A stretch of DNA of 64,000 bases. It comes from an uncultured Christensenella sp. GTDB lineage: Bacteria > Bacillota > Clostridia > Christensenellales > UBA3700. The position numbers and the translations under genes were made by a program. Positions 608 through 64,000 of the stretch are shown piece by piece. The notes below the pieces were generated by a model. The model searched no databases. It worked only from the letters and a program-made list of their open reading frames with translations, and was not told the origin of the DNA. Positions within the stretch are counted from its first letter, which is position 1; each line of letters opens with the position of its first letter. Location: NCBI GenBank assembly GCA_910579785.1, contig CAJTVJ010000003.1:3702-67701 (forward strand), given 5' to 3'.

Positions 608-3034
608 TTGATGTTAAAGCTTAATGGGATAAGCAGGGCATATGATGACAAAATCGCGCTTAACGGCATAGACTTGACCTTTCCCGACAAAGGACTTGTA
701 ATAATCAAAGGGGAGAGCGGCAGCGGAAAGACCACTCTCCTCAACTTGCTTACAGCGCACGATTATCCTACGTCAGGCACAATGACGTTTGACGGAGTGG
801 AGATAAATCGAAAGAATAGCGAAAAGTATAGAAAGGCGTATTGCAGTAATATATATCAAGACTATATGCTTATTGAAGATATGACTGTGGGCGAGAATAT
901 AGAGCTGGCATTGCAGGCATACGGCAAGAGATATACTCAGGAAGACATAAAGACATTGCTTGCCAAAGTGGGAATATCCGAGGAGTATATGACCAAGCAG
1001 GCGTCAAAGCTGTCGGGCGGAGAGAAGCAAAGGGTGTCGATAGCGAGAGCGATAGCCAAGGATAAGGCAATGATATTTGCAGACGAGCCGACGGGCAATC
1101 TAGATTCGCAGAACGGCGAGATGGTGATGGAGATACTCAAAGAGATATCCAAAGAGAGATTAGTGGTAGTAGTTTCGCACAATGAGTCGTTTAATGCAAA
1201 GTATGCAGACTATACAGTAGAGCTTATAGACGGAGTGGTGGAGAGCAGTAACTTGCCGCAGATAGAAGAGGAGGCAGGGAAAGAGAAAGGCAAGCTGCTT
1301 AAAAGCAAGAGTAGATTAAAATTCAAAGAGTTGATAAAGCTATCTTCTTGGGGTTTTAAGAAGAATAGGGCTAAGGCAGTTATTTCTGTCGTAGCATTTG
1401 TTATGCTGAGTATTTTAAGTCTTATATTTACAGTATGTGCTTTATGCGACGTTAATTTGTCGTATTCCAAATCTTTAAGTAAATGCGATCGAAAAAATTT
1501 TATGGCAAATATAATAAACAGCACATGTAACGCTGGTGATATTGATAGATTTGAGAAAAGTTTAGACAACCGATGTTCGGAAGTTTATAACTGCCTCAAT
1601 AAGTTTAACATTGGAAAAATAGATTTGGAAGCGTCGGCTAAGTTTAGTGAAAGATATCAATTGCCCAACGAAAAGCACAGCTATACGGGAAATCTGCCTC
1701 AAAGATTCATCCCATATATATGTTACGGCATTGTTTATAATCCGCAAATAAGCGTTGACGTCGAAATTTTGCACGGTGAATTTCCCAAGGCTTACAACGA
1801 CATTATGTTGCCGTACTGTCTTGCATGGTATATGTCCGAGGCATGTGTAGATTATAAAACTGACGACGTAAGAAACTTGATAGGCAGAGAAATAAAATAT
1901 ATACATTTTGGAGGCGATATAGGATATAGGATTTGCGGAATTTTTGACGAAGGAATGTATTATACGGATTTTAAAACGCCGCAAAGCAAGAATATCGTAA
2001 AATATTATAATGATACAAATATTATGGGCATAAGCGTTATACTCGCACCTGATGTAAAGGAGTTTTGGTATAACAATGCATGTCGCAACGGATCGGTTGA
2101 ATTATACGGCAATAATTATATCGGAGATCGGGATGTTTTGGTATATGGTTACGACAAGTTCAGCGGATACGCAGTGAATTATGATCCGCTTGCCGATAAT
2201 GAAGTTTACATTGATAGGTCTGTCGCTCTGGCTCTCGGTATCAACGTGGGCGATATTCTTTCAAATACAAAGTATAGCGTTCTTAATTCTGACGATGGAA
2301 GACCTGTCGATAAGAACTTTGACGGATTGATAGTAAAAGGTATATTTGATTTGCCTGAGTATGGGAAGTTTGTAATCTTCTCTTCGAATTATTTTATCAA
2401 TAATTTTATAATGTATTCAAAAGTATCGGGACTCAACAGCTTTTATTTTAACTTAAAAGGAAATGACGATAATTATGGTTTTCTCAACAAAATTACAGCT
2501 GTCGGATATGAGGAAAATATTTGGCAGGGCAATGAGATAGATAATAATATAGACGGCGTTAATGCCGAAAATCTGTTTCTTACTACCGGACTTTATTCGG
2601 CGATTTCCGGATATAGAAATATTATATTTTTACCGCTTTGTATAATTGCAATGTTGGGGTTGGCAACTATGGGTTTTATATCAACAAATTTTTTGATTTC
2701 GTCAAAAGGTAATGCTTACAACATATTGCGCGCTCTTGGGTTTGGCAAATGGAATATTGCTCTTATACTTTCTATTCAAGTGTTTTTATTAATAGCGCTG
2801 GGATGTATATTGGGCATTACCGTCAGCGCCGTCGGATTGCATTCGTTTGGCAAAATATATGTCAAATCAAAGCTTGGCGTTGCCGCAAGGCTTTCAAGTG
2901 AAGTTATGTTGCCGATAGGATATACTGCGCCTTTAATAGCAATAGCAATATCGGTATTGATAGGAGTCCTATTGGTAGCTGAAAAGACATTTGCACTTTT
3001 TTTAAAATCTATCATGGCAAACAAGGCGGATTGA
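608..3034 (+). CDS. MacB-like fused ABC transporter: N-terminal ATPase, TM1, large extracytoplasmic domain, C-terminal FtsX TM bundle
   Basis: Walker A GESGSGKTT, signature LSGGEKQR and Walker B IFADEPT are present. A TM segment sits near aa 255-280 and 3 TM helices at the C-terminus. GGAG lies 7 nt upstream of the ATG. Confidence 0.85.
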   Translation: MMLKLNGISRAYDDKIALNGIDLTFPDKGLVIIKGESGSGKTTLLNLLTAHDYPTSGTMTFDGVEINRKNSEKYRKAYCSNIYQDYMLIEDMTVGENIELALQAYGKRYTQEDIKTLLAKVGISEEYMTKQASKLSGGEKQRVSIARAIAKDKAMIFADEPTGNLDSQNGEMVMEILKEISKERLVVVVSHNESFNAKYADYTVELIDGVVESSNLPQIEEEAGKEKGKLLKSKSRLKFKELIKLSSWGFKKNRAKAVISVVAFVMLSILSLIFTVCALCDVNLSYSKSLSKCDRKNFMANIINSTCNAGDIDRFEKSLDNRCSEVYNCLNKFNIGKIDLEASAKFSERYQLPNEKHSYTGNLPQRFIPYICYGIVYNPQISVDVEILHGEFPKAYNDIMLPYCLAWYMSEACVDYKTDDVRNLIGREIKYIHFGGDIGYRICGIFDEGMYYTDFKTPQSKNIVKYYNDTNIMGISVILAPDVKEFWYNNACRNGSVELYGNNYIGDRDVLVYGYDKFSGYAVNYDPLADNEVYIDRSVALALGINVGDILSNTKYSVLNSDDGRPVDKNFDGLIVKGIFDLPEYGKFVIFSSNYFINNFIMYSKVSGLNSFYFNLKGNDDNYGFLNKITAVGYEENIWQGNEIDNNIDGVNAENLFLTTGLYSAISGYRNIIFLPLCIIAMLGLATMGFISTNFLISSKGNAYNILRALGFGKWNIALILSIQVFLLIALGCILGITVSAVGLHSFGKIYVKSKLGVAARLSSEVMLPIGYTAPLIAIAISVLIGVLLVAEKTFALFLKSIMANKAD

Positions 3035-3225
3035 CAACAGCGCCGTGCGGAAATGCGGTGATGACGTCCCATTTGCGATATATTGTTTTTTTAAAAATAA
3101 AATTTAAAAAACTGCTTTAAAATTGTGGTATTATTTCAATTCATTTGATATAATACATTGGAGAAAAAAGATATCAAATTTTGAGCGCGCAAGTAATTTT
3201 ATTTGCAGAGGCTCGCAGAGGACAT

Positions 3226-30330: not shown

Positions 30331-30427
30331 ATGTTTGATGATATTTCTATTGTGTTTTTGTAAAAATGACTTTAAGTATGGTTTTCTATAAGCAATATGC
30401 GTTCGTCGCGACTTTAAAAATAGTGAT

Positions 30428-30819
30428 GTCATTTCGACCGAAACGTAGTGAAGCGGAGAAATCGCATCCGCTTATTTTTCAACTTGTTGAGACCTCTCCG
30501 CTACGGTCGAGGTGACTATATAATGGTTAAAGTTAATCAAGCTATGGTCATTTCGACCGAAGCGTAAGCGTAGCGGAGAAATCTAATCAAGTTGAATAAG
30601 TACCGACAAAATGTAGCGTAAGCGTGCATTTTCGTTTGGTCGGTAAGGACGGAACCCGACTGTATGTTTAGCAATCACTTTGCTTTGCTAAGTGATTGTG
30701 TATTACAAAGTCGTGGTGAACGCCCAGGTCATTGACGCTCGCCCAAGACGCACATGCTGGCTCGCTATGCCGTCGCTTTCGCTCCTTACGACTGTAACGC
30801 AGTGGAATGGAGAAAAATC
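30428..30819. repeat. Mosaic hairpin-repeat cluster 1
   Basis: Units at 30428-30463 (fwd, ATTTC/GAAAT), 30489-30516 (rev, ACCTC/GAGGT) and 30547-30584 (fwd). A 68-nt module B sits at 30595-30662, a unique hairpin at 30669-30700, and a long-arm C-type unit at 30728-30819. Confidence 0.9.
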
Positions 30820-30938
30820 CTTTTAATATAACTCAACAAAAATCTATCAAAATATAAAATTATCAAAAGTTTTATACAACAATATTGATTGCAGCGAAAA
30901 TATATGATAAAATATAGAAAAGGATGTGTAGATATATT

Positions 30939-40512: not shown

Positions 40513-40718
40513 AGACCTCTCCGCGTTGGTCGAGGTGACTAAATATTGCTTATAGCTAATCAAGCTAAGGTCATTTCGACCGTAGTGGAGAAATCTAATC
40601 CTTTTATTTTTTAATACGTTGAGACTTCTCGACTACGCTCGAAGTGACCGGATATGGCTTATTGTCAATCAAGCTTTCGCTCCTTACGACACTGTAACGC
40701 AGTGGAATGGAAAATCTC
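40513..40718. repeat. Mosaic hairpin-repeat cluster 2
   Basis: Units at 40513-40539 (rev, ACCTC/GAGGT), 40570-40596 (fwd, ATTTC/GAAAT) and 40621-40648 (rev, ACTTC/GAAGT). A truncated C-type unit sits at 40666-40718. Confidence 0.9.
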
Positions 40719-45938: not shown

Positions 45939-46020
45939 TTATGTATTTCTCTTTTTGGCGATATTCTTTTGCTTTTCGCTTATAATATGAAATTTCCTTT
46001 TGCGTTGTTACTTGGCAAAG

Positions 46021-46529
46021 GTTGCAGGGTGTCGTGACTTTCTCCCAGACTTGTAGGTATATATTTAGTCGCCTCGACCGAAGCGGAGAGGTATCATCCT
46101 TTTATTTTTTTAATTCGTTGAGATTTCTCCGCTGCACTTCGTTTCGGTCGAAATGACTATATTTTTTGCTATGCTACAAACCATATCCAGTCACCTCGAC
46201 CGCAGTGGAGAGGTCTAATCGAGTTAAATAAGTACCGACAAAATGTAGCGTAAGCATGCATTTTCGTTTGGTCGGTAAGGGCGGAACCCGACTGCTAGAT
46301 TTTTAATCTGATGAGATTTCTCCACGCGTTACACTTCGGTCGAAATGACTTTACTATATATTAGTACCATTGTTACCTAGGATATGTTGCATTGGGAGAA
46401 GGCTCAAAGTTCCATATCCCCTACAATCTGCAACACTACGTAAGCTATGTCATTTCGACCGTAGCGGAGAAATCTCATCCGCTTATTTTTATTTACTTGT
46501 TGAGACCTCTCCGCGTTGGTCAAAATGAC
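46021..46529. repeat. Mosaic hairpin-repeat cluster 3 (largest)
   Basis: Units at 46068-46092 (fwd), 46120-46157 (rev), 46190-46216 (fwd), 46313-46349 (rev), 46449-46476 (fwd) and 46502-46529 (rev, hybrid arms). Module B sits at 46227-46294. Linker-family copies sit at 46021-46060 and 46388-46408. Confidence 0.9.
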
Positions 46530-46551
46530 TTAAAATATATTTGAGTCTACC

Positions 46552-59028: not shown

Positions 59029-59967
59029 ATGGAGATACCTGTATATTTATTCACGGGATTTTTGGAGAGCGGAAAGACCAAGTTCATACAAGAGATGATG
59101 ACCGACGACAGATTTAACGAGGGCGAAAAGACGTTGCTGTTGGTCTTTGAGGAGGGCGAAGAGGAATACAAGCCTCAGTATTTTGCGTCTCCCAACGTGC
59201 ATATCGAATACGTCGAGGATATCGACGATATCAACGATTCTCTGCTTTCCGCGATAGAAAAAAAGCATGGGATACAGAGAGTAATTATAGAATACAACGG
59301 CATGTACGAAGTGGGTAAGCTGCTTGACGTGATGCCTGATAATTGGACTTTGGCGCAAGTGCTTATGATAGCGGACAGCAATACATTTATGAATTTCAAC
59401 GCCAATATGAGGCAGTTGACTTTTGATAAAATGCAGAGCAGCGAAGCGGTGATATTCAATAGATTTGACGACAAAAAAGACAAGATGGAATATCACAAGA
59501 TAGTGCGCGCGGCAGGCAGAAAGATAGACATACTTTATGAATATACCGACGGACACGTCGAGCCCGACAGGATACCAGACCCGCTGCCGTATGATATCGA
59601 CGCCGATATAGTTGAGATTAAGGACGAGGACTATGCGGAGTTTTACAGAGATATCTGCGAAGAGGGCAGCAAGTATGACGGCAAGATACTTTCATTTAAA
59701 GGTATAGTAGCGGTGGACGACACTTTGCCTAAGAATACCTTTGTGCTTGGCAGACATATTATGACGTGTTGCGAAGCCGATATATTTTACGGCGCGTTTG
59801 TATGCGAACACAGACAGGTCATCGACCTCAAAAAGCGCGATTGGGTGAAGATAACTGCAAAGATAAAGTTTAGAAAACACGAAGTTTATGACGGCGAGGG
59901 ACCTGTGTTTGAAGCCATATCTGTGGAGAAGACGGACAAGCCGCTGCAAGAGTTGGCAACGTTTTAA
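59029..59967 (+). CDS. CobW-like P-loop domain lacking CxCC, fused to a DUF1980-like C-terminal domain (MTCCEAD motif)
   Basis: FTGFLESGKT Walker A with no GCxCC. The C-terminal GRHIMTCCEADIFYGAFVC resembles the conserved CC motif of YcgQ/DUF1980-type proteins (assigned from memory). Confidence 0.6.
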   Translation: MEIPVYLFTGFLESGKTKFIQEMMTDDRFNEGEKTLLLVFEEGEEEYKPQYFASPNVHIEYVEDIDDINDSLLSAIEKKHGIQRVIIEYNGMYEVGKLLDVMPDNWTLAQVLMIADSNTFMNFNANMRQLTFDKMQSSEAVIFNRFDDKKDKMEYHKIVRAAGRKIDILYEYTDGHVEPDRIPDPLPYDIDADIVEIKDEDYAEFYRDICEEGSKYDGKILSFKGIVAVDDTLPKNTFVLGRHIMTCCEADIFYGAFVCEHRQVIDLKKRDWVKITAKIKFRKHEVYDGEGPVFEAISVEKTDKPLQELATF

Positions 59968-63640: not shown

Positions 63641-64000
63641 GTCAATCAAGCTTTAAGTCATTTCGACCGAAGTGCAACGAAGCGGAGAAATCTCAACAAA
63701 TTAAAATAATGAAGTCACTTCGAGCGTAGTGGAGAAGTCTCAACCTTTTATTTAACTCGATTAGACCTCTCCGCGTTGGTCGAGGTGACCAAATGTGAAT
63801 CTTACAAGCTTGGGAGGAAATCGTCATTGACGCTCGCCCAAGACGCACCTGCTGGCTCGCTATGCTAGTGCTTTCGCTCCTTACGACCGAAGTGGAGAAA
63901 TCTCATCCTTTTATCTTTTAATAAGTTGAGACTTCTCGACTGTGCTCGAAGTGACCGAATATAAATCTTACTAGCATTGGAGGAAATCGTCATTGCCGCT
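63641..64000. repeat. Mosaic hairpin-repeat cluster 4 (continues past the window end)
   Basis: Units at 63657-63694 (fwd), 63714-63741 (fwd, ACTTC/GAAGT), 63763-63789 (rev) and 63928-63955 (rev). A C-type unit sits at 63823-63904 and a second C-type unit starts at 63989. Confidence 0.9.

What the first reader, a model, noticed from the sequence alone, without database searches (positions are those of the whole stretch)
30428..30819. Cluster 1 carries a 68-nt module B found again 15.6 kb away with only 2 mismatches
Three hairpin units lie downstream of the cdd terminator. They are followed by AATAAGTACCGACAAAATGTAGCGTAAGCGTGCATTTTCGTTTGGTCGGTAAGGACGGAACCCGACTG at 30595-30662.

The same 68-mer recurs at 46227-46294 with two substitutions. 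In both places it follows a forward unit plus the sequence TAATC(A/G)AGTT(G/A).

The module folds on itself: TACCGAC pairs with GTCGGTA and AAAATG pairs with CATTTT, around a 13-nt loop. Near-identity of a non-coding module at two unlinked loci points to recent copying or strong constraint. It could be a mobile cargo, a small RNA, or a protein-binding site. A unique hairpin (CAATCACTT/AAGTGATTG, 30669-30700) and a long-arm C-type unit follow it.
Basis: seen in the sequence. Interest (0 to 1): 0.6.

Follow-up and report, generated by a model that had tools for sequence, protein, structure and literature searches.

The report
High-copy bulged hairpin repeat module
The 68-base "module B" is not a two-copy oddity: it is one of an estimated several dozen near-identical copies of a small non-coding hairpin repeat that is widespread in gut Clostridia, probably folds as single-stranded DNA, and in relatives sits right behind tRNA genes, with the enzyme that copies it unknown.

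Summary
In detail: the 68-mer stands at 30595-30662 and 46227-46294 with 2 mismatches. Its boundaries are arbitrary, though. It consists of a linker tail, a bulged hairpin I call H1 (AGT tag, 7-bp clamp, inner helix, GCGTAAGC tip, 3' bulge CGTTTG) and the 5' strand of a second long hairpin. Cluster 2 holds a truncated copy in the loop of a hairpin-unit palindrome.

Summed DNA contig depth over H1 is 76-98 times the flanks, which suggests tens of copies. RNA depth is not enriched, and no promoter precedes the module.

Pattern scans found the same design in many Christensenellales-type and other gut Clostridia MAGs. Both helices covary. The tag and bulge stay fixed, although the scans required the bulge. 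Tips are often the DNA mini-hairpin motif GCGN(N)AGC, on one strand only. In relatives the module starts 0-1 nt after the CCA end of many different tRNA genes.

Best reading (about 50%): a non-autonomous repeat that folds as single-stranded DNA, copied by an unidentified structure-specific enzyme. A structured RNA is the main rival. It is not in Rfam.

The parts
30428..30516 (+). Palindromic pair of hairpin units: a forward unit at 30428-30463 (ATTTC type), a loop, and a reverse unit at 30481-30516 (ACCTC type).
   Evidence: These are unit matches GTCATTTCGACCG / GCGGAGARRTC, far above shuffle expectation.
30547..30583 (+). Forward hairpin unit that precedes the module in cluster 1.
30584..30598 (+). 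Linker TAATCAAGTTGAATA.
   Evidence: The same linker type, T(A/C)A(T/A)C..TT.AA(T/A)A, precedes H1 in copies from other contigs.
30599..30645 (+). H1 hairpin. It consists of the tag AGT (30599-30601), clamp TACCGAC/GTCGGTA (30601-30607 / 30639-30645), inner helix AAAATG/CATTTT (30608-30613 / 30627-30632), tip with GCGTAAGC (30616-30623), and 3' bulge CGTTTG (30633-30638).
   Evidence: Fold. Model R1 scores 83.8 bits. Covariation of the clamp is shown and of the inner helix. The tip motif is counted.
30647..30725 (+). Second long hairpin (LH). Outer helix P2 pairs 30647-30662 with 30707-30725.
   Evidence: Folds. The LH recurs with H1 in L006, L008, L009 and L012. Four compensatory pairs in P2 between two subfamilies are shown. 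Summed depth is about 31 times the flanks.
30728..30819 (+). Long-arm 'C-type' unit that follows the module. Related copies stand at 40680-40718 and 63810-63870.
   Evidence: A similar GCCGTCGCT.TGCTCCTT.CGA stretch adjoins a tRNA-tail copy in L219.
46190..46230 (+). Cluster 2: forward unit (46190-46215, ACCTC type) plus linker TAATCGAGTTAAATA.
46231..46277 (+). Cluster 2 copy of H1 (AGT tag 46231-46233; bulge CGTTTG 46265-46270).
   Evidence: Model R1 scores 81.0 bits.
46279..46294 (+). Cluster 2: only the 5' strand of P2 (GGGCGGAACCCGACTG). The rest of the long hairpin is missing.
   Evidence: The same truncation is seen in L010.
46295..46349 (+). Right half of the unit-pair loop plus the reverse unit (46315-46349). 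This closes the palindrome around the nested module.
   Evidence: The DNA fold of 46190-46349 gives -28.7 kcal/mol, z = -4.1.

Best explanation
Module B is the conserved core of a non-coding repeat module of about 127 nt. The module has two parts: the bulged hairpin H1 and a second long hairpin.

It is present in this mouse-gut Christensenellales-type genome in probably several dozen near-identical copies. It belongs to a family spread through gut Clostridia.

I think it acts as folded single-stranded DNA, for three reasons:
- Both helices of H1 are kept by compensatory changes.
- Only the 5' AGT tag and the CGTTTG bulge keep their sequence.
- The tip is often the DNA mini-hairpin motif GCGN(N)AGC, on one strand only.

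Inferred mechanism: a trans-acting, structure-specific single-strand DNA enzyme recognises the tag and bulge and copies the module next to other hairpins. The logic would resemble RAYT/IS200-type Y1 transposases, Ssn nucleases or integron integrases. In this genome the targets are the loops of the GTCAYYTCGACCG...GAGARRTC unit palindromes. In relatives the targets are terminator-like hairpins directly behind tRNA genes. Recombination or template switching between repeats then produces mosaics and truncated copies such as cluster 2.

Shown here: the anatomy, a high copy number, the wide distribution, the covariation, the strand-specific tips, the tRNA-end linkage in relatives, and the strain-level variability.

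Inferred only: that the folded strand is DNA, that the module is mobile, and that a dedicated enzyme exists.
For: 1. Copy number. Summed DNA contig depth over H1 is 76-92x (run X1) and 80-98x (X5) the unique flanks at 95% likeness or more, and 60-100x in four runs at 90% or more. This fits 2 copies per 64 kb.

2. The same composite recurs in 10 metagenome copies. It is forward unit, linker, H1, then either the long hairpin or a truncation.

3. Clamp covariation. Six of 7 clamp pairs show compensatory changes in 47 cells. 95.6% of cells are paired, against 83% in shuffles and 38-47% when partners are slid.

4. Inner-helix covariation. All 7 pairs show compensatory changes in 84 cells, and 91% of helix cells are paired. 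P2 of the long hairpin has 4 compensatory pairs.

5. Several helix variants coexist in one MAG, so pairing is what is kept, not a protein half-site.

6. Within-genome homogeneity with genome-specific helices points to bursts or concerted evolution.

7. Seventeen of 78 distinct tips carry GCGNAGC or GCGNNAGC on the H1 strand. Only 1 carries the motif on the complement, and shuffles give a mean of 0.25. As DNA, GCGTAAGC melts at 71.5 C and GCGAAGC at 76.5 C, whereas r(GCGAAAGC) melts at 39 C (PMC13037366).

8. No sigma-70 promoter precedes the module. Orientation relative to genes is mixed. RNA depth is only 23-46x the flanks, which is 0.3-0.5 of the DNA ratio.

9. Strain polymorphism. One metagenome allele (L002) has a single unit of about 100 nt in place of the 490-nt mosaic.

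10. Hairpin units are found nested inside the P3 loop in L063, L066, L104 and L114.

11. tRNA linkage. Twenty-three of 25 tRNA-linked copies share one configuration, 13 of them at 75-83 nt, across eight tRNA identities. The module starts 0-1 nt after CCA, and tRNA-tail copies accompany repeated modules.
Against: - No enzyme was found.
- No clean empty-versus-filled site for the module alone was seen, and no target-site duplication.
- Covariation and GNRA-like tips (GTAA, GCAA) fit RNA as well as DNA.
- G-T and A-C mismatches in the helices show no strand bias.
- Related copies were retrieved with patterns that fixed the bulge and one helix. The 'invariance' of the bulge is therefore partly built in, although it is the only recurrent 6-nt bulge among AGT- or GT-tagged hairpins in the fetched DNA.
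- The depth-based copy number sums all organisms in each sample, so it is an estimate.
- The module is present in metatranscriptome contigs, so it is transcribed at least passively.
Confidence: 0.5

Rival explanations
1. The module is a structured RNA element. It could be a small RNA, or a cis element in read-through or tRNA co-transcripts that acts as a stabiliser, processing signal or terminator. H1 would be a protein-binding RNA hairpin, and the long hairpin would be a terminator-like 3' domain.
For: - All three helices covary strongly and the bulge is conserved.
- Some tips are GNRA tetraloops (GTAA, GCAA).
- In the tRNA-linked subfamilies the long hairpin is an A-run, a GC hairpin and a T-run, like a bidirectional terminator. 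It starts right after the tRNA CCA end.
- The module is present in metatranscriptome contigs.
I did not check that claim.
Against: - No promoter lies before the window copies, and no conserved promoter lies before the tRNA-linked copies.
- Cluster 2 is antisense to both neighbouring genes, and orientation is mixed overall (25 same, 20 opposite, 28 mixed).
- RNA depth relative to flanks is lower than DNA depth relative to flanks.
- Triloop tips GCGAAGC and GCGTAGC are stable as DNA, not as RNA.
- In tRNA-linked copies the tip motif lies on the strand opposite to the tRNA transcript.
- Tens of near-identical copies with genome-specific helices look like repeat amplification.
- There is no Rfam match.
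Confidence: 0.22
2. The module is a single-strand initiation or priming signal, like sso or ssi elements. The folded top strand would recruit RNA polymerase or primase to start complementary-strand synthesis on exposed or incoming single-stranded DNA.
For: - The window copies read TACCGACAAAATG-TAGCGT. This resembles the ssoA boxes RSB (TTATGCCGAGAAAATTT, 11 of 17 matches) and CS-6 (TAGCGT), with CS-6 in the loop as in ssoA (PMC4598088; pT181 and pE194 folds).
- Mini-hairpin tips are typical of phage G4, St-1 and alpha3 origins and of RSF1010 ssiA (PMC13037366).
- The tip motif is strand-specific.
Against: - The inner helix that carries the RSB-like letters is freely replaced in relatives.
- TAGCG(T/A) is absent from most family members.
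- There is no BLAST similarity to any plasmid, and only one 19-base chance-level match (E = 5) among phages.
- No copies were found in viral contigs.
- ssoA elements are about 160 nt long and lie on rolling-circle plasmids.
- There is no obvious use for tens of chromosomal copies.
Confidence: 0.08
3. The module is a double-stranded or cruciform binding site for a nucleoid or architectural protein, analogous to the IHF-binding L motif inside E. coli BIMEs. It would spread passively with the neighbouring hairpin units.
For: - The mosaic architecture resembles BIME: units in alternating orientation with a conserved extra motif between them.
- The module lies preferentially near gene 3' ends (113 against 67 gene ends within 500 nt).
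Against: - Compensatory changes in both helices, with several variants inside one genome, show that pairing is selected and not two identical half-sites.
- The two arms are asymmetric because of the 6-nt bulge.
- The one-strand tip motif has no meaning in duplex DNA.
Confidence: 0.05

Closest known systems
REP / BIME mosaics and REPINs with RAYT (Y1) transposases (PMC2817692, PMC3116915, PMC3733652)
   Same: Both are high-copy, intergenic, hairpin-forming repeats. Both form mosaics with other motifs and are homogeneous within a genome. Both show helix covariation, carry a short conserved tag next to the stem, and lie near gene 3' ends.
   Different: - The tag is AGT(A/C), not GTAG or CGTC.
- The hairpin has two helices split by a fixed 6-nt bulge, and it is followed by a second long hairpin.
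- Neighbouring copies are direct tandem repeats 145-170 nt apart, not inverted pairs.
- No RAYT was found, though one could not be searched for genome-wide.
- The host lineage is Clostridia.
- Relatives are tied to tRNA 3' ends.
NTS / SRM hairpins cut as ssDNA by the GIY-YIG nuclease Ssn (Chenal et al. 2025, PMC11893778)
   Same: Both are short hairpin repeats thought to act as single-stranded DNA, dense in intergenic clusters. The neighbouring units here start GTCAT... and end ...AATC, like NTS. Extra DNA in the loop is tolerated by Ssn in vitro.
   Different: The published SRM search pattern matches neither the units nor module B in this window. Module B has a different design, with a tag, a bulge and two helices. 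No ssn-like ORF lies in the window.
Integron attC sites (from my own knowledge of the family)
   Same: Both are recognised as a folded single strand. Both have two helices separated by unpaired bases and a variable terminal structure. In both, the sequence is free apart from a few fixed bases, and one strand is the active one.
   Different: There is no RYYYAAC/GTTRRRY core (the 3' clamp here is GTCGGTA and varies). There are no cassette ORFs, no integron integrase is known in this setting, and the unpaired bases lie on one side only.
Single-strand origins and initiation signals with mini-hairpin tips (ssoA of pT181/pE194/pMV158; G4 origin; RSF1010 ssiA; PMC4598088, PMC5703833, PMC13037366)
   Same: Both have strand-specific ssDNA hairpins tipped by GCGN(N)AGC-type mini-hairpins. 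The window copies also carry RSB-like and CS-6-like letters.
   Different: The RSB- and CS-6-like letters are not conserved in the family. The element here is chromosomal and high-copy. It shows no sequence similarity to plasmids or phages beyond a single chance-level match.
tRNA-end repeat modules noted earlier in this scan in other gut Clostridia (e1-2330445, e1-4880485, e1-2130647, e1-4631459; AI notes, not literature)
   Same: Both have the CAAACG/CGTTTG bulge with a covarying inner stem and a position just behind tRNA genes. Both come with tRNA-tail copies and are reshuffled between strains.
   Different: In the window's genome the module has left the tRNA context. It is dispersed in high copy inside mosaics of another hairpin-unit family.

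Membership tests
REP / REPIN (RAYT-mobilised) | A 20-40 nt imperfect palindrome with a conserved GTAG or CGTC tag at one end (PMC3733652). | tested here: not met
   H1 is a palindrome with a tag, but the tag is AGT followed by A or C. AGT precedes the clamp in 135 of 144 copies. It is neither GTAG nor CGTC.
REP / REPIN (RAYT-mobilised) | Two REPs in inverted orientation form the mobile unit (REPIN). | tested here: not met
   All close H1 pairs in the fetched loci are direct repeats 145-170 nt apart. Only two distant inverted pairs were seen.
REP / REPIN (RAYT-mobilised) | A cognate RAYT (Y1 transposase) gene in the genome, usually flanked by the repeats. | not testable with these tools
No recurrent ORF family lies near H1 in 55 loci.
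BIME-type mosaic | Palindromic units in alternating orientation, separated by a small set of conserved extra motifs. | tested here: met
   In clusters 1 and 2, forward and reverse units alternate, with loops or the H1 module between them. The same composites occur in other contigs. This is an architectural likeness only, with no sequence relation to E. coli BIMEs.
SRM / NTS-Ssn | A match to the published degenerate SRM pattern HGTCWYN(0-2)YYVSBRHN(0-5)WNVSBRGN(0-2)RNCYNB. | tested here: not met
   There is one unrelated match in 64 kb (59647-59680) and none at the units or at module B.
SRM / NTS-Ssn | A small GIY-YIG ssn gene flanked by the repeats. | not testable with these tools
The only match to a GIY..YIG-type motif in the window's six frames lies in a low-complexity 86-residue ORF that does not look like a nuclease.
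ssoA single-strand origin | Conserved RSB and CS-6 boxes in a hairpin of about 160 nt on a rolling-circle replicon. | tested here: not met
   The window copies match RSB at 11 of 17 positions and carry TAGCGT in the loop. Both features are lost in relatives. No plasmid similarity was found.
Any Rfam RNA family | A covariance-model match at the gathering score. | tested here: not met
   There are 0 matches in the window. Only chance-level miRNA or snoRNA hits appear at E up to 10 in 30380-30860. Related loci give only tRNAs and one SAM riboswitch, away from the modules.
Independent small-RNA gene | Its own promoter, a terminator, and a discrete abundant transcript. | tested here: inconclusive
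   No promoter was found. RNA depth relative to flanks is below the DNA ratio. Only assembled contigs without strand were available, so ends and strand cannot be read.
MITE | Terminal inverted repeats and target-site duplications. | tested here: not met
   The left flank is always a unit plus linker. The right end varies: the full long hairpin, half of P2, or nothing after H1. No terminal inverted repeat or duplication is visible around the window copies.
Integron attC | R and L boxes with the RYYYAAC / GTTRRRY core, next to cassette ORFs. | tested here: not met
   The clamp is TACCGAC/GTCGGTA and varies freely. No cassette ORFs are present.

The most novel reading that the evidence does not exclude
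H1 (AGT tag, clamp, CGTTTG bulge and mini-hairpin tip, followed by a long hairpin) could be the recognition site of an undescribed mobility system in gut Clostridia. That system would be structure-specific and act on single-stranded DNA, or through a reverse-transcribed RNA intermediate. It would home to the 3' end of tRNA genes of any identity, right after CCA, and to the loops of other hairpins. In Christensenellales it would have escaped the tRNA context and amplified to tens of copies per genome.
Probability: 0.3. Interest if true: 0.8.

Novelty: new variant of a known kind. Interest (0 to 1): 0.55.

Why it matters
Interspersed hairpin repeats such as REP, BIME, REPIN and NTS are well studied in Proteobacteria, where each was eventually tied to an enzyme (RAYT, Ssn). 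Gut Clostridia, which are mostly uncultured, have no such map.

This family has a simple, searchable signature: AGT, a clamp, any helix, the CGTTTG bulge, and the closing clamp. It shows unusually clean covariation in every helix. Its tip motif points to a single active strand. In relatives it is strikingly exact in its position behind tRNA genes.

That combination makes three questions testable:
- Which enzyme recognises it.
- Whether it moves through single-stranded DNA.
- Whether it affects tRNA gene ends, termination or genome rearrangement.

It also warns annotators that near-identical "orphan" non-coding modules in these MAGs are repeat-family members, not locus-specific regulators.

Tried and rejected
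Copy number therefore had to be estimated from contig depth.
- Rfam at gathering and at permissive thresholds gave nothing relevant.
- Two exact patterns taken from the window copy found nothing in the species-representative genomes. The window's own species seems absent from that collection.
- Viral contigs gave 0 hits. Plasmids gave 0 BLAST hits. Phages gave one chance 19-mer.
- The ssoA idea (RSB and CS-6) fits the window copies but not the family.
- The published SRM pattern did not match.
- Promoter and terminator scans found nothing at the module.
- A search for a recurrent neighbouring protein found none. Pfam on ORFs next to the bin.7 and E21/BRZ copies was uninformative.
- A second allele at the cdd locus was not found. 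All retrieved contigs have the same spacer length.
- RNA runs for a tRNA-linked relative (L213) gave almost no data.
- Considered but not pursued for lack of a test: an IS110 bridge- or seek-RNA-like module inserted into REP-like hairpins (lead from PMC12288879), and a likeness of the long hairpin's internal loop to hairpin-ribozyme loop B (no Rfam hit).
- Orientation relative to local gene strand, used as a proxy for replication direction, showed no bias.
Full report
OBSERVATION

The 68-mer stands at 30595-30662 and again at 46227-46294 on the same strand. There are two substitutions (G30624/A46256 and A30649/G46281), and no such match occurs in shuffled sequence. In both places it follows a forward hairpin unit and the linker TAATC(A/G)AGTT(G/A).

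ANATOMY

The 68-nt limits do not mark a natural unit. The stretch is a composite of three pieces:
- the last bases of the linker;
- a bulged hairpin that I call H1;
- the 5' strand of a second, long hairpin.

In window coordinates, H1 has these parts:
- tag AGT at 30599-30601;
- clamp TACCGAC/GTCGGTA at 30601-30607 and 30639-30645;
- inner helix AAAATG/CATTTT at 30608-30613 and 30627-30632;
- a tip that closes as GC-GTAA-GC;
- a 6-nt bulge CGTTTG at 30633-30638, on the 3' side only.

In cluster 1 the long hairpin is complete. P2 pairs 30647-30662 with 30707-30725, and P3 occupies 30669-30698.

In cluster 2 only the 5' strand of P2 is present. It is followed by the right half of a unit-pair loop and a reverse unit. 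H1 therefore sits nested between the arms of a unit palindrome. The DNA fold of 46190-46349 gives -28.7 kcal/mol, z = -4.1.

COPY NUMBER AND EXPRESSION

| Run | Type | Flank depth | H1 depth (95% likeness or more) | Ratio to flanks |
|---|---|---|---|---|
| X1 | DNA | 14.5-15.1 | 1106-1329 | 76-92x |
| X5 | DNA | 26-36 | 2469-3048 | 80-98x |
| X25 | RNA | 15.4-18.1 | 389-449 | 23-27x |
| X28 | RNA | 10.5-13.2 | 389-542 | 33-46x |

- The P3 hairpin is at about 31 times the flanks in X1.
- Four DNA runs at 90% likeness or more give 60-100 times the flanks.
- These sums include every organism in the sample, so they are estimates. They do agree with 2 copies per 64 kb in a genome of a few megabases.
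- Per copy, the module is no more abundant in RNA than the neighbouring genes. It is about 0.3-0.5 of their level.
- The contigs carry no strand and no read ends, so a discrete transcript cannot be excluded. There is, however, no sign of an abundant one.
- No sigma-70-type promoter precedes either copy.
- Cluster 1 is sense to its neighbours, while cluster 2 is antisense to both of its neighbours.

OTHER COPIES AND STRAIN VARIATION

A metagenome scan returned ten more copies with the same build: forward unit, linker, then H1. After H1 they continue in one of three ways:
- the full long hairpin (L006, L008, L009, L011, L012);
- the cluster-2-type truncation (L010);
- nothing after H1 (second copy in L009, and L013).

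At the SDR-MFS spacer, most public contigs are identical to the window. One allele (L002) has a single unit of about 100 nt instead of the 490-nt mosaic. The mosaics therefore differ between strains. The cdd spacer showed no second allele.

THE WIDER FAMILY

Three scans of species-representative genomes found the H1 design in many MAGs. The organisms are labelled:
- Christensenella, Christensenellaceae and Candidatus Caccopulliclostridium;
- uncultured Clostridia, Eubacteriales and Firmicutes, including UMGS808, UMGS1429 and HGM11346.

Covariation is clear in every helix:
- Clamp. With the inner helix and bulge fixed by the pattern, the clamp varies. Examples are TACCGAC/GTCGGTA, TCACGGC/GCCGTGA, TCGCGAC/GTCGCGA and TAAGCGC/GCGCTTA. 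Six of 7 pairs show compensatory changes in 47 cells. 95.6% of cells are paired, against 83% in shuffles and 38-47% when partners are slid.
- Inner helix. With the clamp and bulge fixed, the inner helix varies completely. Examples are AAAATG/CATTTT, AAACGGT/ACCGTTT, CAAGTTCC/GGAACTTG and CGAAATTG/CAATTTCG. All 7 pairs are compensatory in 84 cells.
- P2 of the long hairpin has four compensatory pairs between the window type and a second subfamily.

Further points on the family:
- Several helix variants coexist in single MAGs, and each genome has its own one or two types.
- A generic finder recovers 144 H1 in 1.58 Mb of fetched DNA, against 0-3 for control bulges. AGT precedes the clamp in 135 of those copies.
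- Because every retrieval pattern contained the bulge, its invariance is partly by construction. An earlier first-reader note from another genome (e1-2330445) had independently singled out the same bulge.

WHICH STRAND, AND DNA OR RNA

Seventeen of 78 distinct H1 tips carry GCGNAGC or GCGNNAGC on the H1 strand. Only one carries the motif on the complement, and shuffles average 0.25.

These are the 'mini-hairpin DNA' sequences:
- d(GCGAAGC) melts at 76.5 C.
- d(GCGTAAGC), the window's tip, melts at 71.5 C.
- r(GCGAAAGC) melts at only 39 C (PMC13037366).

This singles out one active strand and leans towards DNA. The tetraloop versions (GTAA, GCAA) would also suit RNA. G-T and A-C mismatches in the helices show no strand bias.

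LINK TO tRNA GENES IN RELATIVES

Of 137 H1 in the fetched loci, 25 lie within 400 nt of a tRNA gene. Of those, 23 share one configuration: read on the tRNA strand, the order is tRNA, long hairpin, H1. Thirteen of them lie at 75-83 nt. The tRNAs involved are Gln, Arg, Ser, Leu, Trp, Val, Glu and Pro.

Other features of these copies:
- The long hairpin starts 0-1 nt after the CCA end.
- It looks like a bidirectional terminator, with an A-run, a GC hairpin and a T-run.
- Repeated modules are each preceded by a copy of the tRNA's last 18-21 nt.
- Overall, H1 lies nearer to gene 3' ends than to 5' ends (113 against 67).
- Close copies are direct tandem repeats 145-170 nt apart.
- Hairpin units are sometimes inserted into the P3 loop.
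- No protein family recurs next to the modules.

INTERPRETATION

The module is a member of a structured, non-coding repeat family. The evidence points to a repeat that is amplified within genomes and works as a folded single strand:
- high copy number;
- within-genome homogeneity with between-genome helix turnover;
- pairing kept in every helix;
- a fixed tag and bulge;
- one-strand mini-hairpin tips;
- mosaic and truncated forms;
- strain polymorphism;
- no promoter and no RNA excess.

I put about 50% on the following model. A non-autonomous single-strand DNA element is copied by an unidentified structure-specific enzyme that reads the AGT tag and the bulge. It is deposited next to other hairpins, and recombination between repeats generates the mosaics.

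Shown here: the anatomy, abundance, distribution, covariation, strand-specific tips, tRNA linkage and polymorphism. Inferred only: mobility, the DNA nature of the active form, and the enzyme.

The rivals are:
- a structured RNA, about 22%;
- an sso- or ssi-like priming signal, about 8% (the window copies resemble the RSB and CS-6 boxes, but the family does not);
- a duplex protein-binding site, about 5%.

COMPARISON WITH KNOWN KINDS

- REP/BIME/REPIN. The mosaic architecture is BIME-like, but the REP/REPIN criteria are not met. The tag is different and copies are direct rather than inverted. A RAYT gene could not be searched for.
- SRM/NTS-Ssn. The neighbouring GTCAT...AATC units resemble NTS/SRM hairpins. 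The published SRM pattern matches nothing relevant in the window, and the window encodes no convincing GIY-YIG protein.
- attC. Sites of this kind are the nearest analogue in logic, but the core sequence is absent.
- Rfam has no family for it.
- Two literature searches found no description of such tRNA-end or Christensenellales repeats. This is weak negative evidence.
- Earlier AI notes of this scan describe what seem to be relatives in other gut Clostridia. They are leads, not support.

VERDICT

The finding is real but ordinary in kind: an interspersed hairpin repeat. It is unusual in design and apparently undescribed.

- Recent copying: supported.
- A discrete small RNA: unlikely.
- 'Unique hairpin': wrong.
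- 'Two unlinked loci': really two copies out of dozens.

Noticed in passing
window 45939-46551 compared with L002:4730-4951: The SDR-MFS spacer is polymorphic between strains. One metagenome contig has a single hairpin unit with a different right arm (CTCCATGCGATACGCATAGTTGTTATGAC) instead of the 490-nt mosaic. The flanks are the same on both sides.
   Followed up: partly
L016, L017, L018, L021, L023, L024 (uncultured Clostridia MAGs E21_bin298, BRZ_AD_bin10, BRZ_FE_bin27): H1 here lies inside a conserved element of about 330 nt. The element begins GACTGCCGAAAAAC and ends GTTTTTAGGCAGTC, which look like inverted ends. It has a conserved AT-rich stretch before H1 and a terminator-like tail. A partial copy of the 5' segment follows the 3' end.
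   Followed up: partly
L213:7520-8000; L219:6140-6920; L105: Copies of the last 18-21 nt of a tRNA (from the T-loop to CCA) precede each repeated module. This gives tandem blocks of tail, long hairpin and H1 behind tRNA-Gln, tRNA-Val and tRNA-Leu. In L219 the blocks are about 330 nt long and 98% identical.
   Followed up: partly
window 30741-30800; L219:6380-6413: The 'C-type' long-arm unit (GCTCGCTATGCCGTCGCTTTCGCTCCTTACGAC) resembles a stretch in L219. That stretch runs straight into a tRNA-Val tail copy and carries a D-arm-like TAGCTCA. The C-type units may therefore be tRNA-derived.
   Followed up: no
L063, L066, L104, L114, L007/L022: A reverse hairpin unit with half a unit-pair loop is inserted in the apical loop of the P3 hairpin of the module. 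This shows hairpin units nested in loops of other repeats.
   Followed up: no
L015:2239-3001, L020:2865-3625, L019 (MAG SRR14920976_bin.7): A block that is 96% identical and at least 760 bp long is repeated on different contigs. It contains hairpin units, an H1 module and the 3' part of an ORF without Pfam match (370 or more residues, repetitive and charged).
   Followed up: partly
L033, L041, L075, L085, L097, L111 (Deinococcales MAGs); L050, L053, L078 (Verrucomicrobia): The scan pattern also hit a recurrent, unrelated conserved sequence in Deinococcales (..CTTTTTCAAAATGCGCGACCACAATATTTTCGTTTGGCGCGTGAAC..) and another in Chthoniobacterales. Neither has the clamp pairing, and both probably lie in conserved genes.
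   Followed up: no
window 30559-30578: The loop of the forward unit before module B (GAAGCGTAAGCGTAGCGGAG) itself holds two mini-hairpin DNA motifs, GCGTAAGC and GCGTAGC.
   Followed up: no
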